A stretch of 64,000 nucleotides of DNA from positions 71,483 through 135,482 of the forward strand of contig CAMJWT010000001.1 in the NCBI GenBank assembly GCA_946409545.1. Direction: 5' to 3'. How positions within the stretch are numbered: position 1 is the first letter of the stretch; each line of letters opens with the position of its first letter. This DNA is from an uncultured Clostridia bacterium (GTDB lineage Bacteria; Bacillota_I; Bacilli_A; RF39; UBA660). This document shows positions 7,404 to 42,554 of the stretch, piece by piece. A program made the translations under genes and the position numbers. Under the pieces are notes generated by a model, which was not told the origin of the DNA, searched no databases, and was given only the letters and a program-made list of their open reading frames with translations.

Positions 7404-7577
7404 ATGGATGAAAAGATTAATGAAGCTTCAGGAGAAATAAAAAAATATTTTGATAATTTACCTTTGATAGATGAAAAGGATATTAAAGACTTTAATTTTT
7501 TTGAGTCATGTTTGTATCTTGAAAAATTAAATTTATTAGATAGTTTAACAAGTAGAGAAGGTGAAGATAATGAGTGA
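7404..7577 (+). CDS. Small hypothetical protein (57 aa)
   Basis: AGGAGA RBS lies 6 nt upstream of the ATG. TGA stop overlaps the start of the next ORF. Confidence 0.3.
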   Translation: MDEKINEASGEIKKYFDNLPLIDEKDIKDFNFFESCLYLEKLNLLDSLTSREGEDNE

Positions 7578-9780
7578 AGTAGTTGCTATTAATTATCCCG
7601 CTTTTAATACAAGAGTTAAAACTAATAAAAGACAAGTTATTAAGCAGTTAGAGAAAAAAGTTGAAGAAGGAAAACTAGATATGTTAAAAGCATCATTAAG
7701 AGAGAAAAGTATTACTTTTAATGATGAAATAACTGATTATTATCAATTTGTTGATTCTCTTCAAAGTTTAACAGGACCAGATTTAATAATTGCCAATAAA
7801 TTAGTTAATAACATAAATCGTGAAGTTGATCGTATGATTTTATCATTAAAAGATGGTTCAACTAGTGCTTTTACTAAGTTTTTACAAACAGTTAATGATA
7901 AAGTATTAAGTCCTGTTGGAAATGTTGTTACGAATTCTCTTGCGATGAATACTGTTCTTAGTTTAATACCATCAATTCCTGTTAAAATGGGTGTTTCTAT
8001 TTTGTTAACAGGTATGTCTTTAACTAATATTTATAAGGTTGATAAGTATAAAATGGTTACCAATCGAACTTATGAATTAGATAAAGTATTACAAGAATTA
8101 GAAACAACAATTGATAAAGATGGTAATATTATCGATACTAGATTTAGTGAAAATGATCAAACCATTATTCGAAGTTTTTTAAAAACGAATAATGTTATAT
8201 ATGAAGATACAGGATATCTTTCTTTAAGAGAAGCGGTTTATAGTTTATCAGTTGAACAAAAAGAAGAATTATGTCGAAAACTTGATATGAATAAAGAGCA
8301 AGAGGAGCGAATTGAAAAATTAAACGATAATCTATTTACAAGAATAAGAAAAAAAGTTATAACTCCTATTGCTGTTGCTACAACCGGAGGAGTAGGTTTA
8401 GCAACGTCTATTAATTCTATTGATCCAACCCTTTTAGCAGCCCCTCTTAATGGTACACTAGTAGGAACAATTGTATCAAAATTAACCGAAAGTAAAGTAA
8501 TTGGATGGGTATCAGGAGCTATTACAGGATGCTTAAACTTTGTTGGTAAGTTTATACCTGCTATAAGTAGTTTAGTTAATAAAGTATCAGCTATAGAAAA
8601 CGTTGCAGTTCTTGCTGTAGCTGGAGCAGGTGTAGGTCTATTAGGTGTAATAGGTAAAGGCATCTATAATGCGATAAAGAATAGGAAGAATATCTTTAAT
8701 ACGCAAAAACTTCAAAAGAAATTGGCAGATAAAGATCAAGAACTATATGGAGAAAAAGATATTGAAGAAATAAGTAGAATGCGTGAGATTCTAAAAGAAA
8801 GATCTCATAAAGAAGAAACCTTTATCATTAGTATCGTATGTCAATATATGAATGAAATAGGTGTTGAATATGAAAAAGCGCCTCATAATTTACAAGAACT
8901 ACAAGAATTAATAAATGGTTTATCAAATAAAGAGAAGAGACAAATTAGAAAATTATTTGAATCATTAGAAGAATTTTTACATAGAGAACCAAATAAATTT
9001 AAAAGGTGTATGAAAAAAGCTGGTAAATTTATTAAAACGGTTGTAACTTTAGGTCTTGCTGGAATGAGTGTTACTAATATTCTTACAAGTGGTGGATTCT
9101 TTGCAATGATTAAAGAAAAGTTATTTGGTGTAGAACCGGTAGTAAAACCAGAATATTTATCGTTTGATGATTCAAAAGGAAGAGCAGCTTATGAAAGTGA
9201 ATATGGTGAGGTTATTAATGAAGTAGTAGAAACACCGATGGCAAACCCAGAACCTCAACCAGGACCTGCCCCAGTAACACCAACCCCAACGCCTACTCCA
9301 ACACCGACACCAGGTCCATCAGTAAATATGACACCAGAAACTCCAGTAACGACACCTAAACCAAAATATGTTTGTGGAAGATTACCAAAGTTAAATTATA
9401 ATTTACAGGATGTTTGCTTGGGAACAACTAACGTTGACTTATCTTCACTTCCTGATGATGAATTGTTATCATTAATTGTTAATTCACCTGATTATCGATA
9501 TACAGCACATATTTTAGAGGTAATGGATAAGGATACTTTCTTAAGATTTAAGACTTTAATTGAAAACAGTCCTAAAATAAATCGTAATGGTTGTTTAAGT
9601 TATCAATGGGTAAAAGATTGTTTGAATGCTCGAATAAATACTGAAAATCAAGTTATTAAAAATGCTATTGATGCTTATAATGCTAAAGTAAATTTAGATG
9701 ATATAACTAACAAGGTTGGTACAGGTATTGGTATAGCAGCCGCTATAACTGAAGAAGAAAAACAAGTTAAAACAAGATAA
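7570..9780 (+). CDS. Large hypothetical membrane protein with Gly-rich amphipathic/TM segments, a Pro-Thr linker and a Cys-containing C-terminal domain
   Basis: Roughly 736 aa from the ATG at 7570. Has several hydrophobic Gly-rich stretches ('AVATTGGVGLATSI', 'AVLAVAGAGVGLLGVIGKG'). Has a 'PTPTPTPTPTPGP' linker and a C-terminal domain carrying CGRLP...C...C...C. Confidence 0.5.
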   Translation: MSEVVAINYPAFNTRVKTNKRQVIKQLEKKVEEGKLDMLKASLREKSITFNDEITDYYQFVDSLQSLTGPDLIIANKLVNNINREVDRMILSLKDGSTSAFTKFLQTVNDKVLSPVGNVVTNSLAMNTVLSLIPSIPVKMGVSILLTGMSLTNIYKVDKYKMVTNRTYELDKVLQELETTIDKDGNIIDTRFSENDQTIIRSFLKTNNVIYEDTGYLSLREAVYSLSVEQKEELCRKLDMNKEQEERIEKLNDNLFTRIRKKVITPIAVATTGGVGLATSINSIDPTLLAAPLNGTLVGTIVSKLTESKVIGWVSGAITGCLNFVGKFIPAISSLVNKVSAIENVAVLAVAGAGVGLLGVIGKGIYNAIKNRKNIFNTQKLQKKLADKDQELYGEKDIEEISRMREILKERSHKEETFIISIVCQYMNEIGVEYEKAPHNLQELQELINGLSNKEKRQIRKLFESLEEFLHREPNKFKRCMKKAGKFIKTVVTLGLAGMSVTNILTSGGFFAMIKEKLFGVEPVVKPEYLSFDDSKGRAAYESEYGEVINEVVETPMANPEPQPGPAPVTPTPTPTPTPTPGPSVNMTPETPVTTPKPKYVCGRLPKLNYNLQDVCLGTTNVDLSSLPDDELLSLIVNSPDYRYTAHILEVMDKDTFLRFKTLIENSPKINRNGCLSYQWVKDCLNARINTENQVIKNAIDAYNAKVNLDDITNKVGTGIGIAAAITEEEKQVKTR

Positions 9781-16807: not shown

Positions 16808-17377
16808 TTAAAAACTAATTGATGCACTATTTGTTACATATGTTGCAAAATCAGCATCTGTTTTAATACTAAATGTTTGAGTAGATGTTGAAGGTGTATC
16901 ACCTAAATTATATCCAGTTACTCTTGTAGGATCTGCTGTATCACCATATACAGCAGTATATGTTCTAACTTCTTTTTTATAAGTTATTGTTGGATATCCT
17001 TCACCATCAACATTAGTTTCTGTTACAAAGTATTTAATTTGTTTAGTTGTATTATCATCTTCAATTTTACAAGGTGTATCAGATACTTTACTTGCTGCAT
17101 CTCTAGCCCAACCATCAAATTTTTGAGCTTTTGCAATCATATCATCATATTTTGCTTGCATTTTATCAAGTAAATCTGTTGATTTATCATTAATAGTAGT
17201 AATCATTGCAAGCCAACTATCTCTTGTTTCAGCGATAGATGAAAGATCACTATCATCGATTATTTTTTTATAAGTATCACTTATTGTTTTTATTGTTGTA
17301 TCAATATTTAATTTAGCTTCTTCAAGTGGCCTTTTAAAATTTGTTACAACTAATTCTTCATATGAAATTCTTGCCAT
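16808..17377 (-). CDS. Hypothetical protein with a helical N-terminal half and Thr/Tyr-rich C-terminal half
   Basis: 189 aa. Second gene of a minus-strand operon with 17387..18661 (10-nt spacing, GGAGG RBS). Confidence 0.45.
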   Translation of the reverse strand: MARISYEELVVTNFKRPLEEAKLNIDTTIKTISDTYKKIIDDSDLSSIAETRDSWLAMITTINDKSTDLLDKMQAKYDDMIAKAQKFDGWARDAASKVSDTPCKIEDDNTTKQIKYFVTETNVDGEGYPTITYKKEVRTYTAVYGDTADPTRVTGYNLGDTPSTSTQTFSIKTDADFATYVTNSASISF

Positions 17378-17386
17378 AACTACCTC

Positions 17387-18661
17387 CTAAAATTCTACCC
17401 ATTGTTCTTCAGGAGAACCTTCTTCAGAAATCTTAGCACTTGTAATATTTCCGTCTTCATCTGATTTATAATCATAAATATTATATTCTCCTTCAGGAAG
17501 AGCTTCTTCATCGGCTACACTATCACCGTTTTCTTGTTTTTTCTTAACGTAGATAGTTGCTCCTAAACCAACAACTAGAACACCTAGGACACCACCAAGA
17601 ATCTTATTCTTGCTGCTACTAATTGTAACTTTTGATCCGTTACCTAAGTCAACATTTTGTGGATTAGTAAATGTGTAACCATATTGTTCAAATGTTCCGC
17701 CATCAATATACTTACCATCTTTATAGATTTGAATCCATTGTTCAGGTTCGCCATCTTTACTAATTCTAATTGCTGTAACATTTGAATTAGAATCAGAAGC
17801 GATAGCGTAAACTTTATATTTACCTGGCTCTAATTGTCCAATTAAATTATTATCTTTATCATAAATAGGAATACCACCACTAGTACAATCGAATGATCCT
17901 ACTTGGTTAGTTTCATAATAAGAACCTACTGGCACACCATCTTGAACAACTCTAATCCATTGTTCAGGTTCTGTTCCATCAGGACTTACCCTAACAGCGA
18001 TAACATTTCCATTTCCATCTTTTAGTTCTTCATAAACTTTATATTGACTTGTTGTTGCTGTTCCCGTTGGATTACCGTTTTCATCAGTAATAATTGTTCC
18101 ATCTTTTGTTACTGTTAATGTTCCTAAACCATTATTTGTTGTTGGGTCAGTAGAATCTGTATTGAATTGATCAATTAAAGAATCAACTGTTGGTGTAACT
18201 GCTACAACTACTTCTTCGTCTTCAGTTGGATTTTCATCAGTTGGCTCTTCCTCGGTTGGAGTCTCATCTGTTGGTTCTTCTTCAGTAGGAGTTTCTGGAT
18301 CTGGTGTCCAATCATCTCCACCGCTCCAGTTGTTATTTCCACGTGGACGACGACTTTCTTCCTCTTCTTCTTCACCATCTTCATCGGTCATAATGATTCC
18401 TTCAAAGACTTGGGCCATTTCCATACCTATTTTGTTAATGCATCCAGCGATTGTTTGATCTGACTCATCTCCAGGTTCACCACACCATTCTTTAGCATCA
18501 AATTTATCACCAATTATTTCTTTAGGCTTAACTTCTACAATTTGTTCATCTGTATTATATTTGTTTATTCTCTCAAAAGCATCAGTTCTTTGTTTTAAAT
18601 TGGCATTTAATATTGTTAGTACATCTGTATCGATTGTTAACATTTCATCACCTATCCTCAT
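17387..18661 (-). CDS. Repeat protein lacking a signal peptide and anchored by one C-terminal TM helix, with an acidic cytoplasmic tail. Paralogous in architecture to 21684..24254.
   Basis: Has an 'EEEEEES...TEEEPTDETPTEEEPTDENPTEDEE' acidic linker. Has repeats 'NVIAVRVSPDGTEPEQWIRV' and 'NVTAIRISKDGEPEQWIQI'. Has the TM helix 'ILGGVLGVLVVGLGATIYV' followed by KKK. The tail 'EGEYNIYDYKSDEDGNITSAKISEEGSPEEQWVEF' repeats the motif. Confidence 0.5.
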   Translation of the reverse strand: MRIGDEMLTIDTDVLTILNANLKQRTDAFERINKYNTDEQIVEVKPKEIIGDKFDAKEWCGEPGDESDQTIAGCINKIGMEMAQVFEGIIMTDEDGEEEEEESRRPRGNNNWSGGDDWTPDPETPTEEEPTDETPTEEEPTDENPTEDEEVVVAVTPTVDSLIDQFNTDSTDPTTNNGLGTLTVTKDGTIITDENGNPTGTATTSQYKVYEELKDGNGNVIAVRVSPDGTEPEQWIRVVQDGVPVGSYYETNQVGSFDCTSGGIPIYDKDNNLIGQLEPGKYKVYAIASDSNSNVTAIRISKDGEPEQWIQIYKDGKYIDGGTFEQYGYTFTNPQNVDLGNGSKVTISSSKNKILGGVLGVLVVGLGATIYVKKKQENGDSVADEEALPEGEYNIYDYKSDEDGNITSAKISEEGSPEEQWVEF

Positions 18662-18804: not shown

Positions 18805-18827
18805 GAAAATAGAGAGGAGTGTATAAT

Positions 18828-19139
18828 ATGGGCATGATTTCAGTTAATCCTGAAAAATTAAATGAATTATCAGAATATTATAGCAATAAATTTGATACAA
18901 CATATAGAGATGTAACAGAAAGATTCGGAACAACTATTGGAAAGTTGTCAACTACTTGGGAAGGTGAGGAGGCAACTACTGCTAATGCAGCATATGAAAA
19001 AATTAAAGCTTCCCTACAAAGAATAGAAGAAAGATCTAACGATATTAAACGTATTGTTGCTGGAAAAGCAACTGGATTCCAAGAAACTGTTGATAATACT
19101 AAGAGAAGTTTCAATCAAATGGATGATGTAAAATTTTAA
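18828..19139 (+). CDS. WXG100 (ESAT-6-like) family protein
   Basis: About 103 aa from the ATG at 18828 (AGGAG 9 nt upstream). Central 'TTWEGEEATTANAAYEKI' W-x-G motif between two predicted helices. Confidence 0.55.
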   Translation: MGMISVNPEKLNELSEYYSNKFDTTYRDVTERFGTTIGKLSTTWEGEEATTANAAYEKIKASLQRIEERSNDIKRIVAGKATGFQETVDNTKRSFNQMDDVKF

Positions 19140-19160: not shown

Positions 19161-19433
19161 ATGGATAATAGAAAGATTAATGTAGAAGAAGCTAAACAAC
19201 AAATTACTGAATTAAAGAATGTTAGAGAAGAGTTAGAAAAAGTTGTTAGTGAACTTGAAACTCAATTCTTAGCAGAATTTTCTAATGCTTATGATAGCCA
19301 AAGAGCTCAAGAATTAAAAGCTAACATTGATGCAATGAAAGTAGAAATTGATAATATTAATAAAGAAACAAATACAATTACACAAATTAGTGAAGAATAT
19401 GTAAGAAGTTCTGAAGCTACTGATGTACAATAA
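19161..19433 (+). CDS. Small helical WXG100-like/EsxB-like partner protein
   Basis: 90 aa, coiled-coil-like. AAGGAG RBS. Lies immediately downstream of the WXG100 gene. Confidence 0.45.
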   Translation: MDNRKINVEEAKQQITELKNVREELEKVVSELETQFLAEFSNAYDSQRAQELKANIDAMKVEIDNINKETNTITQISEEYVRSSEATDVQ

Positions 19434-19458: not shown

Positions 19459-19485
19459 CTCTTATTTTAGCACTCTCTATTGACA
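19459..19485 (+). promoter_or_regulatory. CIRCE (HrcA operator) inverted repeat upstream of clpB
   Basis: TTAGCACTC-N9-AAGTGCTAA versus the consensus TTAGCACTC-N9-GAGTGCTAA, one mismatch. Overlaps the -35 of the promoter. Confidence 0.6.
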
Positions 19486-19499
19486 AGTGCTAAAATAGT
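19472..19499 (+). promoter_or_regulatory. Putative sigma-A promoter of clpB
   Basis: TTGACA, 16-nt spacer, then TATAAT. Confidence 0.5.
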
Positions 19500-19527
19500 G
19501 CTATAATCTTTTTAAAGAGGTGAGATT

Positions 19528-21618
19528 ATGATGCAAAATGAAGAGAATGAAAATGTTCTTGAAAAATATGGACGTGATGTAACTAAAGCATCCAAGGATG
19601 GTAAAATTGATCCTGTAATTGGTCGTGATGATGAAATCCGTAGTATTACAAGAATATTATCAAGAAAAACAAAAAATAATCCAGTATTAATAGGAGAACC
19701 TGGTGTTGGTAAAACTGCTATTGTTGAAGGTCTTGCCAATCGTATAGTTAAAGGAGATGTTCCTAATAGTTTAAAGAATAAGACAATTTGGGAACTCGAT
19801 TTAGCAAGTTTAGTAGCAGGTGCCAAATATCGTGGTGAATTTGAGGAAAGATTAAAAAATGTATTAAATGAAATCAAGAAGAGTGAAGGTAATATTATCA
19901 TGTTTATTGATGAAATACATATGATAGTAGGTAATTCTGGCGATGGAGCTATGGATACAGGTAATATTTTAAAACCTATGCTAGCTCGTGGTGAAATTCA
20001 TGTAATTGGTGCAACAACTTTAAATGAATATCGTAAATTCATTGAAAAAGATGGAGCACTAGAACGTCGTTTTCAAAAAATTAAAGTTAGTGAACCAACT
20101 GTAGAAGATACAATAACAATTCTTCGTGGCTTAAAACAAAGATTTGAAATCCATCATGGTGTTAATATTACGGATAAAGCTCTAGTTTCGGCCGCTACTT
20201 TATCTAATCGATATATAACTGATCGTTATCTTCCTGATAAAGCCATTGATTTAATTGATGAAGCTTGTGCAACAATTCGTGTTCAAATGGATTCTGTTCC
20301 TATTGAACTTGATACTTTAACAAGAAAGATATTAAGTTTAGAAATTGAAAGACAAGCAATAAAAAAAGAAAAAGATGAGTTTAGTAAAAAGAGACTTCAA
20401 CAAATTGAAGATGAACTTTATAACTTAAAACAAGATGAAAATAAACTTAAAGAAGCTTGGGAAAAAGAAAAAGGTGTTAATGATAAAATTAAAGCCAAAA
20501 AACAAGAACTAGAAAAAGCTAAATTTACACTTGAAACAGCAGAAAACAATTATGATTTAGAAACAGCAGCTAGATACCGTCATGGGGAAATACCTAGAAT
20601 TGAAAAAGAACTTGCTGAACTAAATAATTTATCAGAAAATAGAATTCTTAGTGATACCGTTAATGAAGAAGATATTGCAGAAGTTATATCTAAGTGGACA
20701 AATATTCCTATTTCTAAATTAATGAGTGGTGAAAGAGAAAAACTTCTTCATTTATATGATAATATGAAAAAATACATTAAAGGACAAGACGAAGCTTTAA
20801 AACTAGTTAGTGAATCTATTTTAAAATCACGTGCTGGTATTAAAGATCCAAATCGTCCTATTGGTTCCTTTATTTTCTTAGGTCCAACTGGTGTTGGTAA
20901 AACAGAAGTTGCTAAAACATTAGCTCTTGAACTATTTGATGATAAAAGTCATATGGTAAGAATTGATATGTCTGAATATATGGAAAAATTTAGTGTATCA
21001 AGACTAATTGGTTCCCCTCCAGGTTATGTTGGCTATGAAGAAGGTGGACAACTTACTGAAGCGGTTAGAAGAAATCCTTATAGTATTGTTTTATTTGATG
21101 AAATTGAAAAAGCTGATACGGAAGTATTAAACTTATTACTACAAATTCTTGATGACGGTCGTATAACTGATTCTAATGGACGTACTGTAGACTTTAAAAA
21201 TACCATAATTATTATGACAAGTAATATTGGTAGTGAAGAAGCTTTATCTGGTGATAAACAAAAAGTCTTAGAAGAATTAAGACATTATTTAAGACCAGAG
21301 TTTATTAATCGTGTTGATGAAATAATTATTTTTAATCCATTATCTAAAGAAGTTATCTATGAAATTCTTGATAAAATAATTGAAGAAATTGAAGAAAGAC
21401 TAAAAGATAAGAATTTAAAAATCAAGTTAACAGAAGAAGCAAGAAACTATTTAGTCGATATTGGTTATGATGTTAATTATGGAGCTAGACCATTAAAAAG
21501 AGCAGTTTCTCGTAGTATCGAGACGATTCTTGCTGAAAAAATCATTAATGGCGAAGTTAAATATGGAGATACTGTTACTTTTGATTATAATGGAGAATTA
21601 TTTGTAAAGAACCTTTAG
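19528..21618 (+). CDS. clpB: Chaperone ClpB (short form lacking the N-terminal domain)
   Basis: Two AAA+ modules ('GEPGVGKT', 'GPTGVGKT') and a long coiled-coil M-domain between NBD1 motifs. 696 aa, which implies no N-domain, as in Mollicutes ClpB. Confidence 0.9.
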
Positions 21619-21633
21619 AAGGTTCTTTTTTTG
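21607..21633 (+). terminator. rho-independent terminator after clpB
   Basis: agaacc-(tttagaa)-ggttct followed by T7. Confidence 0.5.
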
Positions 21634-21683: not shown

Positions 21684-24254
21684 ATGAGTGATACTAGTAA
21701 TTCTTATGAAATAAAGGATTTGGATGTTAAATCGGTAAGTACAGCAATTAATAATTGTTTAGTTTTACTCTCTGATGAAGAATTGGACTCCATGAGTAGT
21801 TTTTTGTGTTCAGAATCTAATGATATTAAACCGGATTTTCTTAAAATTACACCTTCTGATATAGAAAGCACTTTAATTATGGGTAGAATTTTGCAAGACT
21901 CCAAAAGTTCTAGAAAAACACCAGTGGATTTTAATCAAGTTTTTTATAAAGAAGCTAAAACAACAATGAGTAATGGTTTTTCAAGTTTAAGATCAGTTAT
22001 TGAAAAAATAAATAATTCGATTATTACTTGGAATAATATTTTAAATGAGAATACAGAAATAGATAAAGAATTAGAAGAAATACAAGCTCCAAAAGATGAT
22101 TTACCACCTACTGAATCTAAAATAACTGTTGAAAATGATCTTGTAGGTGTAACTGATACTGGTTCCAAAGTTAACATACCAGCTGGTGAATATGACTATG
22201 GTGAAATAAAGACGGTTAATGGTAAAACCTATATGAAGATAGTAATTAATGGTGTTGAATATTGGGTTTTATTTAAAGATGGAGTTATTGTTTCTTATAT
22301 TGCTTCTTTAATTGATACCAATGTTTATGTTGGTGCTGCTATTGTTGGATTAACTCTTCTTGGAACAGCAATTAATATTCCACCAGGTGATTATAAAATT
22401 CATGATGCTAAAGATATAGATGGTAAAACTTATATTCAAATAGAAGTTAATGGAGAAACCGTTTGGGTATTATTCGAAGATGGTAAAATTGTTCCTTACG
22501 CTGATTCTTCAAATATAACACCTGTAGTAATTGTTACATCAACAATTGTTGGTATAACTGAAAATGGTGAAAAAGTTACAATACCATCAGGAACATACGA
22601 AATCTTAGGTACAAAAACAATTGATGGCAAAACTTATGTCAAAATTAGTATAAATGGTGTTGAATATTGGGTATTATATGAAAATGGCGTAATTGTTCCT
22701 TATAAAGAAACATCAGGTGAAGAAAGAGAGCCATATAATGGAGAATTCAATGATATTTCAATAACAATTTATGTTGATGGTAATCCTATTAATCTAAAGA
22801 GTGGTGAATATACAATCATTTCTACTTTTGAGAGTAATGGACAAACATATGCCGTTATTCTTTATAAAGGAAAATACTATATTGTTTTATTAGATGAAAA
22901 TGGAAATATTGTTGATGGTTCTGATGCTACTCTTGTTAAAGGTGTTTATACAATATTAAATACAGATATTACAATTAATATTGATGGAGAAAAAATCAAT
23001 ATCAAAGCTGGTAAGTATCAAATTATCGCTATTATGGAAATTAATGGTAAACGTTATGGACTTATCTTAATAGATGGTAAATATTATTGGGTATTAATTG
23101 ATGAAAATAATAATATAATTCCTAATAGTGAAGGAGATCCTGTAATAAAACCATCTGTCATTGTTACAGAACCAATTACGATAATAGTAAATGGTGAACC
23201 AGTTACGATTACTCCTGGATCATATGTAATATTAAATATAAAAACAATTGATGGAAAACGTTATGTTCTATTATTGATTAATGGAGTTTATTATTGGGTA
23301 TTAGTAGATGATAATAATAATATTGTTCCAAATGGTGAAGGATTTAAAGCCAATTCAATCGTAATTGTAATAGATAATGATTTAGTAATTATTGTAGATG
23401 GTGAACCAGTTAAAATTACTCCAGGAACGTATACAATCTTAGATGTTCAAATAATTAATGGTAGAAAATATGGTTTAATCTTAATTAATGGAAAATATTA
23501 CTGGGTACCATTAGATGAAAATGATAATATTGTTCCAAATGGTGAAGCAATACCATTTGAAAAAATGACATTTGATTGGGATAGAGAATTAATCTTTATC
23601 ATTAATGGTGAAAAAATTATTGTAAAACCAGGTACATATACAATTCTTCGCGTTATTCATTATGATGATGGAAGTTATGCATATTATGTATTAATAGATG
23701 GTAAATATTATTGGTTCCATTTTGATAAAGATGGTAATTTCAAATATGCATATATTGAAATACCAGGAAATGGTGTTTATACAATTGATACAGAATTAGA
23801 AATAATTGATGAATTAGGTCATGTTGTTGGTATGACTGATCAAACAACATATCATATATATTCTATTATTTATGATGCTGATGGTAATATTATTGCTATT
23901 AGAATCTCACCACCTGGAGAACCTGAAAGATGGATTTATGTAAGAAGTAAAGGAAAAACGGATGGAACATATATTCCAACAGAAGAAGATCCTAGTAAGT
24001 CTAGTGATTCTGTTAAATATTCACACTTTAAAGACCATAAATTAGTATTAGGATGTCTTTTAGGACTTGCATCAGTTATTGGTGGTGCAATAGTTTACAA
24101 AAAGAAGAAAAACTCCAAAGAAAAATTAGAAGAGTATGAGTTAGAAGATGGAGAATATCCTGTATTTGAAGAAGATTTTGATGATGATGGTTCCGTTTCT
24201 CTTCGAATAAATAATGATTCTTCTGAAGATGATTATTGGATGGAGGTTAGATAG
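21684..24254 (+). CDS. Large repeat protein without a signal peptide, with eight tandem ~57-aa beta-rich repeats, a C-terminal TM anchor and an acidic tail
   Basis: 856 aa. Repeats look like 'VNIPAGEY..GKTYMKIVINGVEYWVLFKDGVIV'. Last repeat is 'NIIAIRISPPGEPERWIYV'. The TM helix 'LVLGCLLGLASVIGGAIVY' is followed by KKKK. The tail is 'DGEYPVFEEDFDDDGSVSLRINNDSSEDDYWMEV'. Confidence 0.55.
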   Translation: MSDTSNSYEIKDLDVKSVSTAINNCLVLLSDEELDSMSSFLCSESNDIKPDFLKITPSDIESTLIMGRILQDSKSSRKTPVDFNQVFYKEAKTTMSNGFSSLRSVIEKINNSIITWNNILNENTEIDKELEEIQAPKDDLPPTESKITVENDLVGVTDTGSKVNIPAGEYDYGEIKTVNGKTYMKIVINGVEYWVLFKDGVIVSYIASLIDTNVYVGAAIVGLTLLGTAINIPPGDYKIHDAKDIDGKTYIQIEVNGETVWVLFEDGKIVPYADSSNITPVVIVTSTIVGITENGEKVTIPSGTYEILGTKTIDGKTYVKISINGVEYWVLYENGVIVPYKETSGEEREPYNGEFNDISITIYVDGNPINLKSGEYTIISTFESNGQTYAVILYKGKYYIVLLDENGNIVDGSDATLVKGVYTILNTDITINIDGEKINIKAGKYQIIAIMEINGKRYGLILIDGKYYWVLIDENNNIIPNSEGDPVIKPSVIVTEPITIIVNGEPVTITPGSYVILNIKTIDGKRYVLLLINGVYYWVLVDDNNNIVPNGEGFKANSIVIVIDNDLVIIVDGEPVKITPGTYTILDVQIINGRKYGLILINGKYYWVPLDENDNIVPNGEAIPFEKMTFDWDRELIFIINGEKIIVKPGTYTILRVIHYDDGSYAYYVLIDGKYYWFHFDKDGNFKYAYIEIPGNGVYTIDTELEIIDELGHVVGMTDQTTYHIYSIIYDADGNIIAIRISPPGEPERWIYVRSKGKTDGTYIPTEEDPSKSSDSVKYSHFKDHKLVLGCLLGLASVIGGAIVYKKKKNSKEKLEEYELEDGEYPVFEEDFDDDGSVSLRINNDSSEDDYWMEVR
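22155..23950 (+). repeat. Coding tandem repeat array (8 units of ~165-175 bp) inside 21684..24254
   Basis: Protein-level periodicity '(V/I)x(I/V)(P/K)xGxYxI...(I/N)(D/N)GKxYxxIxINGxxYWVLxDxNxNIVPN'. DNA copies are diverged. Confidence 0.45.
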
Positions 24255-24255
24255 T

Positions 24256-24930
24256 ATGAGTACAATGTCAAGATATACGAATAAAAATGGACCTTTTGCT
24301 CCACCTACAGATAGTGGTCATACTGTTCAAGGTATATTAAATAGTTCGTATTTTAAAAATTTAAGTAAAACTTATGATAAATTATTTAACATTTGTCAAA
24401 AAATTAAAGGCATTCAAAATAGTTTAATTGATGCATCAGGATCTGATATTAATAAAGTTAATGATGATTTAGAGAAAGTTTATAAAGCTTTTAGTGACTT
24501 ACAAGATAAAATTGATAGTCGTGGTAGTATTATGCTTGATAATGCTATTAGATATGATAATGTATATGAAGCTAAACGAAGTTTAATAGGTACAACGATT
24601 AATCATACCGAAACGATTATAAAAAAAGGTAGTGTATATGTTGCTCTAATGTATCGCTACTGGGATACGGTTCGTGAACAAACAGATTTTGTTGAAGGTA
24701 TTGAATATGGAACAGATGGATACATATATTTAAAAGTAAAAAGAACTGTAAGGACAGTTGATCGTCAAAACAAGAATTTATGGGTGTTTGCTAATTTTAA
24801 TGATAACTATGATATGGAAGAAACATCTGACCCTATAATAACTACTTATAATTATGGTCTTAAGGTATTCTTTGATGGAACTTATGAATCTCTTGATAAT
24901 CTAACATTTTTATCTGCAGCACCTAAATAA
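24256..24930 (+). CDS. Hypothetical protein (224 aa)
   Basis: ATG with a GGAGG RBS, overlapping the end of the upstream gene. No recognisable motif. Confidence 0.45.
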   Translation: MSTMSRYTNKNGPFAPPTDSGHTVQGILNSSYFKNLSKTYDKLFNICQKIKGIQNSLIDASGSDINKVNDDLEKVYKAFSDLQDKIDSRGSIMLDNAIRYDNVYEAKRSLIGTTINHTETIIKKGSVYVALMYRYWDTVREQTDFVEGIEYGTDGYIYLKVKRTVRTVDRQNKNLWVFANFNDNYDMEETSDPIITTYNYGLKVFFDGTYESLDNLTFLSAAPK

Positions 24931-25016: not shown

Positions 25017-25307
25017 ATGGTTAAAATTTCTTATAATTCTAGTAATATGGATAGTGTTATAACTTCATTAAGAACTAAAAAAGCATCTTTTGATGAAAGT
25101 GTTTCTACTGTTACAACAGCTATTCAAACTATTGAAAATGGAAATAACTGGAGTGGAACTGATTATGAGTTAGCAAAGTTAGACTTTGATGCTATTCTTG
25201 CCAATATGACTAAGATTGGAAATAATATAGCAAGTATTGAAGCTGCTTTAACTACAGTACAAACTAATATGGCTGCCAATAAATATGGAGGTAACGGTAA
25301 TGGATAA
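25017..25307 (+). CDS. WXG100 family protein
   Basis: 96 aa. 'NGNNWSGTDYELAKLDFDAI' W-x-G motif between helices. AAGGAGG RBS. Confidence 0.5.
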   Translation: MVKISYNSSNMDSVITSLRTKKASFDESVSTVTTAIQTIENGNNWSGTDYELAKLDFDAILANMTKIGNNIASIEAALTTVQTNMAANKYGGNGNG

Positions 25308-25653
25308 TAATATGACTGCTGCTGCTAATGCAGCTATAAGAGATGTTACATTAGAGATAGATACTGATGCTGTATTAGAGCAACTAGCTATTATGAAAAA
25401 TGTTCTTGGTGAACAAGAAAGAGCTTTATTACAAGATTTTGGTGAAACTTTATCAACAGCTTGGAAAAGTGGTAATGCTACTTTAGTAGCTGGTAAGATT
25501 GAAGAAATCAATACTTCATTTACTACAATGGCAGGAATTATTGATAAACTTGTAGATAAAGTTAATTCATATGTTGCTAATGTTCAAAAAGCAGAAGAAG
25601 TTTCTTTCAATAATGGCGAAGAATCTAGTGCACCTGCTCAAACAGAACAATAA
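25300..25653 (+). CDS. WXG100-like partner protein
   Basis: About 117 aa from the ATG at 25300 (GGAGG 8 nt upstream). Helical, with 'TAWKSGNATL'. Confidence 0.4.
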   Translation: MDNNMTAAANAAIRDVTLEIDTDAVLEQLAIMKNVLGEQERALLQDFGETLSTAWKSGNATLVAGKIEEINTSFTTMAGIIDKLVDKVNSYVANVQKAEEVSFNNGEESSAPAQTEQ

Positions 25654-25690
25654 AAAAAACAAACGTTTATTCGTTTGTTTTTTATTTTTT
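25652..25690. terminator. bidirectional terminator
   Basis: A8, then stem aaacaaacg/cgtttgttt with a tttatt loop, then a T-run. Lies between convergent genes. Confidence 0.55.
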
Positions 25691-26368
25691 TACATATTGT
25701 CTTGGATTTGTTTCTTCAGTAAATAAAGTTGATATTTCATCGATTTCTTCTTTAGAGTAATCTTCACCTAAATTTTGTTCAATATAATTATCACGAATTT
25801 CATGTAATCTTGTTAAAAGACCTTGTAAGTTTTGAAGATGATCTTCTTTTTCATTACATTCATTTAATAAGTTTTTATTATTTTCTAAATCGTTTTCAGC
25901 TTCATGTAAATCTTTAATTGTTCTTTTAGCACTATATTGTTTATCTCCGTATAAATCATTATATGGTTTAAATCTTTCGTTTTCTTGAATCTTTTTATCA
26001 CATACCATACTTGAAGTATGATAAGCTACATAATCAGTTGCCCAAATAAGTATTGGTAAGAATGTAGTAAATGTAATATTACCTGCAATTAGAGATGCAA
26101 TGATTAATCCTATTGTTATAACGGCAACTAAGAGTGCTGGAAGAATATATAAGAATTTTTTCATCTTATTATATTTAGGATATCTCTTTTGAATAGTTTC
26201 ATCTTCCATTAATGTTTCTAATAATTTAATTAATTGTTTCTTATCATTAATTGTTTCTTGAATTTTATTTTTATCAAGTGATTTTAATTCTTCATTTAGT
26301 TTATTAATAGCTGTTTGAACTTTATTTGTTTCATTCTTTAATTTTGTCATAAAAACTCCTTTTGCCAT
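25682..26368 (-). CDS. Hypothetical membrane protein with coiled-coil flanks
   Basis: 228 aa with two central TM helices ('FLYILPALLVAVITIGLIIASLIAG', 'FTTFLPILIWATDYVAY'). Confidence 0.45.
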   Translation of the reverse strand: MAKGVFMTKLKNETNKVQTAINKLNEELKSLDKNKIQETINDKKQLIKLLETLMEDETIQKRYPKYNKMKKFLYILPALLVAVITIGLIIASLIAGNITFTTFLPILIWATDYVAYHTSSMVCDKKIQENERFKPYNDLYGDKQYSAKRTIKDLHEAENDLENNKNLLNECNEKEDHLQNLQGLLTRLHEIRDNYIEQNLGEDYSKEEIDEISTLFTEETNPRQYVKK

Positions 26369-40406: not shown

Positions 40407-42554
40407 ATGAAAGAAGAATTATTAAAAGTTTTAGAAACAAAGCTAGATAGTATTAATAAAAACATTGAGTCCTTAGATTTAATTAATACTAGATTAAATG
40501 GAGAAGAAGAGAATCTAAACTATGTACAACAAATTCTTGGATATTTTAAAAATGAAGAAGATGGTTATGATATTAATAGATTTTCTTTGTTAGATAAAGA
40601 GAATTTTAATAAATGTTTAGAATTAGTACCAGATTCTACAAAAGGTAAGTTTCAAACTAATAGTTGTAATTATGATGGTCTTGTTTATTTAATAAATGGT
40701 ATCAATAATGGTATTGCTCTTACTTTAACGGAAGAACAACAACAAGCTATTGAATTGATGATTAATGGCCTTAGTGATAAGAAAATTGATTATCAAGCTA
40801 GAATAGATGGTATTAAGTTAGCAAGAGATAGATTAGAAGTTAGTGATCCTAATGCCTTAGAATTATCTAAAGAAAAATATCAAAGTATTGTTAATGAACT
40901 AAATAATAATGATTATATTTCAGAAACTGATGATGTCATTAATGCTATTAACTATTCTAATGTTGAGCAAAATAAAGTTGTTGATATGTTAAGTTATTTA
41001 TTAAAATATAATGCTGACATTTATAATGAAAGAGTAGAAGTAGGACTACAAAATCCAACATATGTTGCAAATGAAGAGGTTCAACAAGTTGTTCCTACTG
41101 AAGAAGTTTATGAAGCTCCAGTTGAAACAAATATGGAAATGCCTGTAGATGTCCCAACAGAAGAAGTATATGAAAATCCTCAAGAAATGGATTTTATGCC
41201 TACTGAAGATTATGAAGAAGTTAGTGCTGAGGAAACAGAAATACCTCAAGAAGAATCTGTTCCTCTTGAAGTATATCAAGAAACTGAAGTTCCAGCAGAT
41301 GTTCCTGTTGATAATACTGAAGTAGAAACACCTATCGAAACAGCTGTTTCAGAAGAAGTACAAGAAGAAATTAATAAATTAGTTACTGAAGAAGAACCAG
41401 AAGAATATCAAAATAGTGAATTAGAAATTACACCAGCTCCTCTTGAAGTAGAAGCACATAGTGACATGATTAATAAAGATGAATTAGATTCTTTATTACA
41501 GGGTTATCATATTAAACTAGATGATGAATTTGATGATAGCTTATTATATGGTGATATTAATAATTATCGTGATATTTTAGATAATCTTCGTAATCAAGAT
41601 GTTTTATCAACAATTAGTAAAAATCAAATATTACTAAAAAATATCTTAATTTATTCTAATAATGAATTAATTGATAATGTTCTTGAAATAATTAGAAATG
41701 ATTTTTCTATCGATGATGATGATTATGTAGAAACAGCTAAGATTACAATTGATACATTACCAGCAATCTTTGTTAATGAACCAATTGGAACATATGATAA
41801 TTTTATTCGTAATGTTGAAATGTTTAAGAGATTAAACTTCGATATGATTAACTTATTTGATTTTAGTAGAGAATTATTAGTAGTTGATAATAACTTACTT
41901 GAAAGTAATTATCAATTAGTAAGTAGATATGATATTAATATTGATGAAAAGAATGCTAAGTATTTACTTGCAATTCCAAATGTTGTTGAAAGAATGGATT
42001 ATTATGTTGAATCTTTATATGATGATAAGATTACTAGAAAGACATTTGATGGTATTAATATTATTAGAATGTATCCAAGTAAACTTGATACTGTAACAGA
42101 TTTAACGATTAAGAGATTGCGTTATTCTAGTGAGAATGGTAAGAAGATGTTTGGTTCTCGTGAAAACAGTATTTCTGGTGAAGTTGCTAATTTAAAAGTA
42201 GATGTTTTGAATATCCCTGATAATTATATGGCTTCATTCTTCAATAATGAATTTGATGATATAACTGGTGAAGAAATAACTTCATTTGAACAAATGCTTC
42301 TAGCTAATAATAATTATCAATTTGTTGAAGATGAATTATTACAAAAATTAAATATGTATCGTGATGGATTAAGATATTCAATTGAAAATGTTAATGTTTC
42401 TTATAATAAAGTATTAAGAAATTACAATATTTTAATTAATAATAATATTGATCCACAAAAAGCATTAGAATTCGCAGTATGTTATAACCTTGTTATTACC
42501 AAAGATGAATACATTAAAGTAAAAAATGTTTTAAATACATTGGGAGGTAAATAA
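40407..42554 (+). CDS. Hypothetical large acidic protein with a central Glu/Pro/Val-rich low-complexity region
   Basis: 715 aa. Start is 2 nt after the upstream stop. Central region '...VPTEEVYEAPVETNMEMPVDVPTEEVYENPQEMDFMPTEDYEE...'. Confidence 0.5.
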   Translation: MKEELLKVLETKLDSINKNIESLDLINTRLNGEEENLNYVQQILGYFKNEEDGYDINRFSLLDKENFNKCLELVPDSTKGKFQTNSCNYDGLVYLINGINNGIALTLTEEQQQAIELMINGLSDKKIDYQARIDGIKLARDRLEVSDPNALELSKEKYQSIVNELNNNDYISETDDVINAINYSNVEQNKVVDMLSYLLKYNADIYNERVEVGLQNPTYVANEEVQQVVPTEEVYEAPVETNMEMPVDVPTEEVYENPQEMDFMPTEDYEEVSAEETEIPQEESVPLEVYQETEVPADVPVDNTEVETPIETAVSEEVQEEINKLVTEEEPEEYQNSELEITPAPLEVEAHSDMINKDELDSLLQGYHIKLDDEFDDSLLYGDINNYRDILDNLRNQDVLSTISKNQILLKNILIYSNNELIDNVLEIIRNDFSIDDDDYVETAKITIDTLPAIFVNEPIGTYDNFIRNVEMFKRLNFDMINLFDFSRELLVVDNNLLESNYQLVSRYDINIDEKNAKYLLAIPNVVERMDYYVESLYDDKITRKTFDGINIIRMYPSKLDTVTDLTIKRLRYSSENGKKMFGSRENSISGEVANLKVDVLNIPDNYMASFFNNEFDDITGEEITSFEQMLLANNNYQFVEDELLQKLNMYRDGLRYSIENVNVSYNKVLRNYNILINNNIDPQKALEFAVCYNLVITKDEYIKVKNVLNTLGGK

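What the first reader, a model, noticed from the sequence alone, without database searches (positions are those of the whole stretch)
22155..23950. Eight tandem ~57-aa repeats of an unrecognised beta-rich module in the 856-aa protein
Seen in sequence. There is a clear periodicity '(V/I)x(I/V)PxGxYxIxxxKxIDGKxYxxIxINGxxYWVLx(D/E)xNxNIVPN', for example 'VTITPGSYVILNIKTIDGKRYVLLLINGVYYWVLVDDNNNIVPN'. A related 'xIRISxDGEPExWI' unit recurs in the 424-aa minus-strand protein and in both cytoplasmic tails. I cannot assign it to a named repeat family from memory. The DNA copies are diverged, which suggests an old duplication under selection rather than recent slippage.
Basis: seen in the sequence. 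Interest (0 to 1): 0.5.

Follow-up and report, generated by a model that had tools for sequence, protein, structure and literature searches.

The report
Tandem SH3-like repeats, WXG100-linked membrane protein
The 856-aa protein really does carry eight (plus one divergent ninth) tandem copies of a ~69-residue all-beta module that belongs to no named family, probably folds like a small SH3-type barrel, and defines a rare family of membrane-anchored proteins always encoded next to WXG100 (type VII secretion-type) genes in uncultured gut Bacilli.

Summary
The 856-aa ORF (21684-24254, +) holds eight in-register tandem repeats, but the period is 67-71 aa, not 57. Each copy is recognised by an HMM of the other seven at 41-90 bits; shuffles reach 14 at most. 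A half-copy ends the tail after the TM helix.

An exhaustive profile search of 1.84 billion proteins finds 15 representatives with the same architecture: helical N-domain without signal peptide, 2-9 modules, TM, acidic tail ending EYWVEV. It also finds one protein in a phage-type tail/baseplate gene cluster.

In most independent loci with downstream sequence the gene starts a conserved cassette: family protein, ~200-aa protein, WXG100, WXG-like partner. The adjacent clpB is not conserved there.

Best reading: a new sequence family of wall-spanning or binding surface proteins exported by a WXG100/T7SS-type route. Export route, topology and ligand are inferred. No EssC lies in the window.

The parts
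21684..24254 (+). CDS of the 856-aa repeat protein
   Evidence: ORF. A GAGAGGTG ribosome-binding site lies 7 nt before the ATG. Orthologues are 99/85/73% identical with the same architecture. dN/dS is 0.16-0.20.
21684..22112 (+). N-terminal domain (aa 1-143): predicted helical, no signal peptide, conserved 'KPxF' motif
   Evidence: Helices in the AF2 model, but pLDDT is below 35. P50 is the only nearly invariant family column (A7). No Pfam or PDB match; LXG appears in one member only, at E 0.044.
22113..22319 (+). repeat 1 (aa 144-212)
   Evidence: Leave-one-out 61.6 bits.
22320..22520 (+). repeat 2 (aa 213-279)
   Evidence: Leave-one-out 56.4 bits.
22521..22730 (+). repeat 3 (aa 280-349)
   Evidence: Leave-one-out 81.3 bits.
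22731..22937 (+). repeat 4 (aa 350-418)
   Evidence: Leave-one-out 60.9 bits.
22938..23144 (+). repeat 5 (aa 419-487)
   Evidence: Leave-one-out 89.3 bits. Modelled at high confidence.
23145..23351 (+). repeat 6 (aa 488-556)
   Evidence: Leave-one-out 89.6 bits. Modelled at high confidence.
23352..23558 (+). repeat 7 (aa 557-625)
   Evidence: Leave-one-out 86.4 bits.
23559..23768 (+). repeat 8 (aa 626-695), the most divergent of the eight
   Evidence: Leave-one-out 41.2 bits.
23769..23951 (+). ninth, divergent module next to the membrane (aa 696-756; contains the 'IRIS' core at aa 721-753)
   Evidence: Unit HMM 62 bits. Same strand pattern as the repeats in the model. hhalign against the repeat profile: probability 76%, E 2.4e-5.
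24042..24098 (+). single transmembrane helix (aa 787-805, LVLGCLLGLASVIGGAIVY), followed by KKKK
   Evidence: Hydrophobic 19-mer, conserved in all family members.
24150..24248 (+). C-terminal half-module in the acidic tail (aa 823-855, ...DDYWMEV)
   Evidence: Unit HMM 56.8 bits. The tail motif G.Y.V(Y/F)E...R(I/V)....EYWVEV-COOH is conserved family-wide.
24256..24930 (+). 224-aa cassette partner, start 1 nt after the stop codon of the 856-aa gene
   Evidence: Start and GGAGG site. Homologue follows the family gene in L006, L007, L008, L009, L011 and L012.
25017..25307 (+). 96-aa WXG100-like protein (NWSG motif)
   Evidence: Pfam WXG100 22.4 bits (below the 27.3 cut-off) and TIGR03930 26.4 bits, both full length. 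Homologous to the L007 103-aa protein, 1e-10.
25285..25653 (+). 122-aa helical partner of the WXG100-like protein
   Evidence: Homologous to the L007 114-aa protein, 1e-8, and present in L006, L009 and L011. A bidirectional terminator-like hairpin lies at 25654-25683.
17387..18661 (-). 424-aa paralogue: helical N-domain, acidic PT/E linker, two ecto modules, TM, tail half-module
   Evidence: Three unit hits at aa 205-238, 280-312 and 391-424. Aligns with the family C-terminal region. L013 carries the same arrangement.
16808..17377 (-). 189-aa partner downstream of the 424-aa gene
   Evidence: A W189-like ORF directly follows the family gene in L013 (1.6e-14).
18819..19139 (+). 106-aa WXG100 protein (TWEG motif), divergent from the 424-aa gene
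   Evidence: Pfam WXG100 31.9 bits, above the 27.3 cut-off. The same divergent arrangement occurs in L013.
19161..19433 (+). 90-aa helical protein paired with the 106-aa WXG100
   Evidence: ORF. Conserved in L001 and L005. Weak TIGR03930 hit, 16.5 bits.

Best explanation
The 856-aa protein belongs to a rare, so far unnamed family of single-pass, C-terminally anchored envelope proteins of uncultured, probably reduced-genome gut Bacilli.

Its body is a string of nine ~60-70-aa all-beta modules: eight close copies plus one divergent copy next to the membrane. Each probably folds as a small SH3-like barrel with a short beta extension at its N-terminal end. A half-module ends the acidic tail after the TM helix.

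The gene is the first of a conserved four-gene cassette: family protein, ~200-aa protein, WXG100 protein, WXG-like helical partner.

Proposed mechanism (inferred):
- The helical N-domain, which has no signal peptide, pairs with the small WXG100-type proteins and is exported by a type VII-type route.
- The TM helix stops transfer, and the lysine cluster and acidic tail stay in the cytoplasm.
- The module string, roughly 25-30 nm if extended, spans or binds the cell wall or a surface polymer. It would act as a stalk or adhesin.

Shown: the repeats, the family, the cassette and purifying selection. Supported but weak: the SH3-like fold. Inferred: export route, topology and ligand.
For: Repeats.

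New sequence family:
- Only a partial, sub-threshold DUF1508 match. No PDB sequence match.
- An exhaustive profile search of 1.84e9 representatives gives 52 hits. Fifteen share the full architecture: P0002, P0004-7, P0011-14, P0021, P0034, P0035, P0037, P0048.

Cassette: the order family gene, W224/L7_186 class, WXG100, W122/L7_114 class is seen in L007, L006, L009 and L011, and in part in the short contigs L008 and L012. The 424-aa type cassette is seen in L013. W106 passes Pfam WXG100; W96 and L7_103 are full-length sub-threshold matches with a WxG motif.

No signal peptide in any family member (sequences).

Topology: 3-7 K/R in the 15 residues after the TM helix against 1-5 before it.

Extracellular binding role: two good copies of the module (49.5 and 35.5 bits; E 1.5e-19 library-wide) sit in P0009. 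That protein is encoded just downstream of T4_baseplate, M23 peptidase, CIS_tube and Phage_base_V genes, which is where phage tail-fibre or receptor-binding proteins usually sit.

The organism has a wall: FemAB and LysM-G5-M23 genes are present.

Selection: dN/dS is 0.06-0.19 over the repeats.
Against: - No EssC/FtsK-type ATPase or other T7SS core gene lies in the 64-kb window or in the 20 kb of L007. The rest of the genome could not be read.
- The N-domain matches neither LXG nor WXG100, and its model confidence is very low.
- A T7SS cargo that stays anchored by a C-terminal TM helix is not an established class (own knowledge).
- The K/R bias across the TM helix is moderate, not decisive.
- A homologous unit on both sides of the membrane is unexplained.
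Confidence: 0.45

Rival explanations
1. Tail-anchored cytoplasmic scaffold. The long N-terminal part, including the modules, stays in the cytoplasm. Only the ~50-aa acidic tail is outside. The WXG100-like proteins act as cytoplasmic partners.
For: There is no signal peptide. No T7SS machinery lies in the window. The TM helix is close to the C-terminus, as in tail-anchored proteins. SH3-like folds are also common in cytoplasmic proteins.
Against: The lysine/arginine cluster (3-7 K/R) lies directly after the TM helix in all 14 members tested, which disfavours translocating the tail. The same module occurs in a protein at the phage tail-fibre position, which works outside the cell. WXG100 proteins are secretion-associated (own knowledge).
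Confidence: 0.2
2. A T7SS-delivered antibacterial effector. The SH3-like modules target a competitor's wall, the C-terminal hydrophobic helix plus tail is the toxic, membrane-inserting part, and the neighbouring genes are chaperones or immunity genes.
For: The WXG100 cassette resembles LXG-toxin/Lap operons (own knowledge of T7SSb). In L007 the N-terminus of the 186-aa partner resembles that of a 436-aa protein with an M90-like HEMGH peptidase domain, a toxin-like layout. SH3b domains target lytic enzymes to walls (hits).
Against: In polymorphic toxins the N-terminus is conserved and the C-terminus varies. Here the C-terminal TM and tail are the most conserved part and the N-domain the least: 11-38% identity to the window protein outside the near-identical orthologue P0003 (63%). 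No polytopic immunity-type gene is conserved in the cassette; W228 is absent from L007. One TM helix followed by KKKK looks like an anchor.
Confidence: 0.12
3. The repeats are simply members of a named repeat family: DUF1508/YegP, RHS/YD hairpins, or an Ig-like Big/PKD domain.
For: Pfam DUF1508 gives 47 bits summed for the whole protein. RHS_repeat gives summed hits in the distant members P0012 and P0014. The YDxxGN hairpin motif is shared.
Confidence: 0.05

Closest known systems
Bacterial SH3-like wall-binding repeats (SH3b of lysostaphin and endolysins; GW/R repeats of InlB and AtlE; TagH C-terminal SH3-like domain)
   Same: Small all-beta barrel of about 60-70 aa. Used in tandem arrays on Gram-positive envelope proteins and on phage proteins. 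These are the best structural matches, with weak sequence hints to GW and TagH_SH3-like.
T7SSb substrates with helical N-domains and WXG100-like targeting partners (LXG toxins with Lap proteins; TspA of S. aureus)
   Same: Large protein without a signal peptide and with a helical N-terminus, encoded next to two small WXG100-type helical proteins in a conserved cassette. TspA likewise combines a helical N-domain with a membrane-active C-terminus (abstract of PMC7456083, listed).
   Different: The N-domain is not detectably LXG. No EssC is seen. The C-terminus is conserved rather than polymorphic. The middle is a module array, not a toxin domain.
DUF1508 / YegP (PF07411)
   Same: Shares the hairpin 'GKYYWxLxDxNGxII', which matches profile positions 3-25.
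RHS/YD repeats (PF05593)
   Same: The 'YxYDxxGNII' hairpin motif. Summed weak hits in distant family members.
   Different: No stretch passes on its own and there is no hit in the window protein. The model shows discrete small barrels, not a continuous YD shell.

Membership tests
DUF1508 / YegP (PF07411) | A domain-level match over the whole 48-position profile, above the 22-bit cut-off | tested here: not met
   Best stretch covers profile positions 3-25. The one repeat tabulated scores 18.9 bits, and only 7 of 24 repeats match at all (best E 3.9e-5). The 47 bits are a sum over repeats.
DUF1508 / YegP (PF07411) | Fold resembles solved YegP-type structures | tested here: not met
Bacterial SH3-like domains (SH3b, GW, TagH_SH3-like) | Sequence match to a family profile above its cut-off | tested here: not met
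   GW matches 4 of 24 repeats (best E 0.017). TagH_SH3-like matches 2 of 24 (best E 0.013).
Bacterial SH3-like domains (SH3b, GW, TagH_SH3-like) | Small SH3-type beta-barrel fold | tested here: inconclusive
Bacterial SH3-like domains (SH3b, GW, TagH_SH3-like) | Binds peptidoglycan or teichoic acid | not testable with these tools
   Needs binding assays. Indirect support only: the module also occurs in a protein at the phage tail-fibre position.
RHS/YD repeat (PF05593) | Many ~38-aa YD hairpins, each matching the profile | tested here: not met
   No hit in the window protein at E up to 0.1. P0012 and P0014 have summed scores only, with 0 stretches passing.
Ig-like Big / PKD domains | Pfam match or Ig-like fold | tested here: not met
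T7SS substrate (WXG100 / LXG superfamily) | Encoded next to WXG100-family genes | tested here: met
   W106 passes Pfam WXG100 (31.9 against 27.3). W96 and L7_103 are full-length sub-threshold matches with a WxG motif. The cassette is conserved in L006, L007, L009, L011 and L013.
T7SS substrate (WXG100 / LXG superfamily) | N-terminal LXG or WXG100 domain detectable by sequence | tested here: not met
   Of 13 N-domains scanned, one hits LXG at E 0.044. The PDB profile search finds nothing.
T7SS substrate (WXG100 / LXG superfamily) | An EssC/EccC FtsK-type ATPase and other core genes in the genome | tested here: inconclusive
   None in the 64-kb window or in 20 kb of L007.
T7SS substrate (WXG100 / LXG superfamily) | Secretion depends on the T7SS | not testable with these tools
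   Needs genetics in an uncultured lineage or a heterologous system.

The most novel reading that the evidence does not exclude
This may be a new class of WXG100/type VII-dependent cargo. Instead of a soluble toxin, it would be a membrane-anchored surface fibre built from a new SH3-like module, exported without a signal peptide in reduced-genome gut Bacilli. It would serve wall spanning or attachment. The same module has been taken up by a protein encoded where phage tail fibres usually are. The conserved C-terminal half-module (…EYWVEV-COOH) would be the cytoplasmic handle recognised by the export machinery or a partner.
Probability: 0.25. Interest if true: 0.65.

Novelty: new variant of a known kind. 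Interest (0 to 1): 0.45.

Why it matters
If this holds, it adds a new domain family, suitable as a new Pfam entry, and a new four-gene WXG100 cassette. It would also extend what WXG100/T7SS-type systems export, from small helical proteins and toxins to anchored surface structures. The lineage is an abundant but uncultured group of animal and human gut Bacilli whose surface biology is essentially unknown. The presence of the same module in a protein encoded at the tail-fibre position of a phage-type tail/baseplate cluster hints at a shared surface ligand. If it is only a wall-binding repeat protein, it is still a clean new member of the SH3-like wall-binding theme, but of modest interest.

Tried and rejected
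- Tandem Repeats Finder on the DNA found only short 9-13-nt rows and nothing with a ~207-nt period. The copies are too diverged.
- The word-indexed protein search was narrow. The full protein gave three close orthologues. The C-terminal family profile A3 gave two fragments. P0009 gave only itself.
- A scan of 185,579 GTDB species genomes with the C-terminal alignment found no confirmed relative.
- Foldseek with the full-length model (pTM 0.26) gave only generic beta-meander hits (propellers, OspA, Rhs) at TM about 0.1, and was discarded.
- The afdb50 library was not available.
- Foldseek against the PDB with the good two-repeat model gave nothing below E 0.028.
- PDB sequence profile searches with the repeat and with the N-domain gave nothing real.
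- Viral contig scans with P0009 and with the repeat alignment found no relatives.
- PHROGs gave one family of unknown function at 25 bits.
- ClpB as part of the system was rejected. clpB has its own perfect sigma-70-type promoter (19480-19507) and a terminator-like hairpin (21606-21628). It is also absent from the cassette in L007 and from the sequence held for L006 and L009.
- The hydrophobic stretch at aa 215-227 is not a second TM helix. It aligns with the beta strands that open the other repeats.
- Looking up the exact window protein to extend the contig found no record.
- Literature searches on DUF1508/YegP, on T7SS in RF39/RFN20 and on T7SS with SH3b found no description of this family.
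Full report
**1. The observation**

The ORF at 21684-24254 (+) encodes 856 aa. It has a good ribosome-binding site. The motif G..YWVL recurs at aa 190, 257, 325, 396, 465, 534, 603 and 673, a period of 67-71 aa. Aligned in register, the eight units (aa 144-695, nt 22113-23768) are 19-51% identical as protein and 44-65% as DNA. Tandem Repeats Finder finds nothing with this period.

In a leave-one-out test, an HMM of seven units scores the eighth at 41-90 bits. 1000 shuffles of that unit reach 14 bits at most. No other frame of the window holds a copy. So there are eight real tandem repeats, but of ~69 aa rather than ~57.

Three copies are in the 424-aa minus-strand protein and two in the 856-aa protein. 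One copy in each protein lies after the TM helix.

**2. Anatomy of the protein**

- Aa 1-143 is a predicted helical domain with no signal peptide. Model confidence there is very low.
- Aa 144-695 holds the eight repeats.
- Aa 696-756 has the same strand pattern and contains the 'IRIS' core.
- A profile of this juxtamembrane module from 16 family sequences aligns in register with the repeat profile (hhalign probability 76%, E 2.4e-5, 47 columns). The unit HMM also hits the main repeats of distant family members at 8-27 bits. It is therefore a divergent ninth copy.
- Aa 787-805 is a 19-residue hydrophobic helix followed by KKKK.
- The 51-aa tail is acidic (net charge -10) and ends in a three-strand half-module...DDYWMEVR.
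- The hydrophobic stretch at aa 215-227 aligns with the opening strands of the other repeats and is not a TM helix.

**3. Family**

The word-indexed search found only three orthologues (99, 85 and 73% identity), all with eight repeats. Orthologous repeats are more alike than paralogous ones. dN/dS over the repeats is 0.06 (versus L001) and 0.19 (versus L005). This indicates an old duplication under purifying selection.

An exhaustive HMMER search with the repeat profile against 1.84 billion cluster representatives gave 52 hits at E up to 1e-3. Reading the sequences and re-scoring them locally shows 15 with one architecture. That architecture is a ~100-140-aa helical N-domain without signal peptide, 2-9 modules, a juxtamembrane module, a TM helix plus K/R cluster, and an acidic tail ending G.Y.V(Y/F)E...R(I/V)....EYWVE(V/M)-COOH. 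The 424-aa protein of the window is a paralogue.

Most other hits are unrelated repeat proteins that collect many weak hairpin matches. Two of them are informative: P0029 (GW plus C39 peptidase) and P0049 (an SH3_3-like repeat by eye).

One hit is a true match in a different context. P0009 (693 aa, no TM helix) has two good copies (49.5 and 35.5 bits; E 1.5e-19 library-wide). It is encoded just after T4_baseplate, M23 peptidase, CIS_tube and Phage_base_V genes, where phage tail-fibre or receptor-binding proteins usually sit.

The family was not found in 185,579 GTDB species genomes with the patterns used, nor in IMG/VR.

**4. Named families**

Pfam-A reports DUF1508 (47 bits for the whole protein). 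The alignment covers only profile positions 3-25 of 48, the hairpin 'GKYYWVLIDENNNII'. The one repeat tabulated scores 18.9 bits against a cut-off of 22, and only 7 of 24 repeats match at all. Distant members give summed RHS_repeat scores with no stretch passing on its own. No Ig-like family appears. NCBIfam, PHROGs and a PDB sequence profile add nothing. The module maps to no characterised family.

**5. Fold**

The full-length model is poor overall (pLDDT 55.7, pTM 0.26) but all-beta over the repeats. Its Foldseek hits are meaningless.

A model of repeats 5-6, built with 21 two-repeat sequences, is good (pLDDT 86.2). Each unit has three short strands followed by three to four longer ones.

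I rate 'SH3-like small barrel with an N-terminal beta extension' at about 65%.

**6. Context**

The organism is an uncultured low-GC (23-34%) walled Firmicute. The window carries FemAB, Lgt, WhiA, UvrA and, by size, rpoB/rpoC. Orthologous contigs add a LysM-G5-M23 peptidase gene. RpoB is 80-90% identical (best segment) to 'uncultured Bacilli bacterium' MAGs from rabbit, goat, sheep, horse and Hadza gut. It is 80% identical to Clostridium sp. CAG:417, and 73% to Coprobacillus sp. CAG:605 and Mycoplasma sp. CAG:956. From memory, not tested, these belong to the RFN20/RF39-type reduced-genome Bacilli. One relative is a 1.31-Mb circular MAG.

Around the gene lie, in order:
- 189-aa (-)
- 424-aa paralogue (-)
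- WXG100 106 aa (+)
- 90 aa (+)
- clpB (+)
- 856 aa (+)
- 224 aa (+), start 1 nt after the stop of the 856-aa gene
- WXG100-like 96 aa (+)
- 122 aa (+)
- a bidirectional terminator-like hairpin
- 228-aa membrane protein (-)

W106 passes Pfam WXG100 (31.9 bits against 27.3). W96 is a full-length sub-threshold match with an NWSG motif.

A metagenome scan with the distant subfamily's C-terminal profile returned eight loci. In L007, a family member shares ~30-50% identity with the family over the C-terminal region. It is followed by homologues of W224 (5e-14), W96 (1e-10) and W122 (1e-8), next to uvrA and without clpB. The same order recurs in L006, L009 and L011, and as far as the short contigs reach in L008 and L012. 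L013 reproduces the 424-aa cassette, with a W189-like gene downstream and a divergent W106-like WXG100.

The conserved unit is therefore four genes. clpB has its own perfect sigma-70-type promoter and a terminator-like hairpin, and is incidental.

**7. Mechanism**

Shown:
- a selected array of nine modules on a single-pass protein
- a conserved partnership with WXG100-type genes
- the same module on a protein at the phage tail-fibre position

Inferred:
- With no signal peptide and a K/R cluster directly after the TM helix (3-7 K/R in the 15 residues after it, 1-5 before), the favoured topology is N-out, C-in.
- That requires a dedicated export route. The WXG100 partners point to a type VII-type route in which the helical N-domain bundles with the small helical proteins, by analogy with LXG-Lap complexes (own knowledge; PMC10801868, listed).
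- The module string would then span or bind the wall, or bind a surface polymer. At ~3 nm per SH3-sized domain (my estimate), the nine ecto modules would extend ~25-30 nm.

Against this:
- No EssC is seen.
- The N-domain is not detectably LXG.
- An anchored T7SS cargo has no established precedent.
- A homologous half-module on the cytoplasmic side is unexplained.

**8. Rivals**

- A tail-anchored cytoplasmic scaffold (0.2).
- A T7SS antibacterial effector (0.12). This is disfavoured because the C-terminus is the conserved part.
- Plain membership of DUF1508, RHS or Ig-like families (0.05). Tested and not met.

**9. Verdict**

This is a new sequence family and a new WXG100-linked architecture within known themes (SH3-like wall-binding repeats, T7SS-type cassettes), so I class it as a new variant of a known kind. 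Interest is moderate (0.45). The function is inferred and unproven.

Noticed in passing
window 19528-21618 (+): A ClpB-type double AAA+ ATPase of 696 aa that lacks the usual N-terminal domain. It sits between the two WXG100 cassettes. It has its own perfect sigma-70-type promoter (TTGACA-16-TG-TATAAT, 19480-19507) and a terminator-like hairpin (21606-21628). The adjacency is kept in the close orthologous loci L001, L002 and L005 but not in L007.
   Followed up: partly
L094 10001-12082 (P0009): A 693-aa protein with two copies of the same module. It is encoded just downstream of T4_baseplate, M23 peptidase, CIS_tube and Phage_base_V genes in a wolf gut metagenome contig, where phage tail-fibre or receptor-binding proteins usually sit. 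It has no Pfam or PHROG match.
   Followed up: partly
L007 15590-16900 (-): A 436-aa protein with a C-terminal M90-like HEMGH metallopeptidase domain (Pfam 7.8e-10). Its N-terminal ~190 aa resemble the N-terminus of the cassette's 186-aa partner (blastp 3e-7). Two small ORFs follow it. The layout resembles a toxin with an immunity gene and shares the cassette's N-domain.
   Followed up: partly
window 7561-9780 (+): A 739-aa protein with several hydrophobic segments and a Pro/Thr-rich linker. It has no Pfam match and lies between uvrA and lgt.
   Followed up: no
window 61399-63999 (+), runs off the window end: A large ORF with a signal-peptide-like start and repeated 'DxNGxxxxxxLPxGxYxxKExxAPxGY' units. 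By eye these look like SpaA/Cna-B-type adhesin or pilin domains. Not scanned against any library.
   Followed up: no
window 27586-29094 (+): A 502-aa lipoprotein-like protein (hydrophobic N-terminus followed by a Cys) with no Pfam match, inserted between rpsR and rplI. It is conserved at the same place in L001 and L002.
   Followed up: no
window 40407-42554 (+): A 715-aa, very acidic protein with no Pfam match, upstream of rpoB.
   Followed up: no
window 25682-26368 (-): A 228-aa protein with a hydrophobic stretch in the middle, long enough for two membrane segments, convergent with the cassette. It shares the bidirectional terminator-like hairpin at 25654-25683. It is conserved in L001 and L005 but absent from L007.
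   Followed up: partly
window 24214-24930 (+): The mechanical ORF list starts the downstream gene at 24214 (238 aa), overlapping the 856-aa gene. The start at 24256 (224 aa) has a GGAGG site, lies 1 nt after the stop codon, and agrees with the gene calls on the orthologous contigs.
   Followed up: yes
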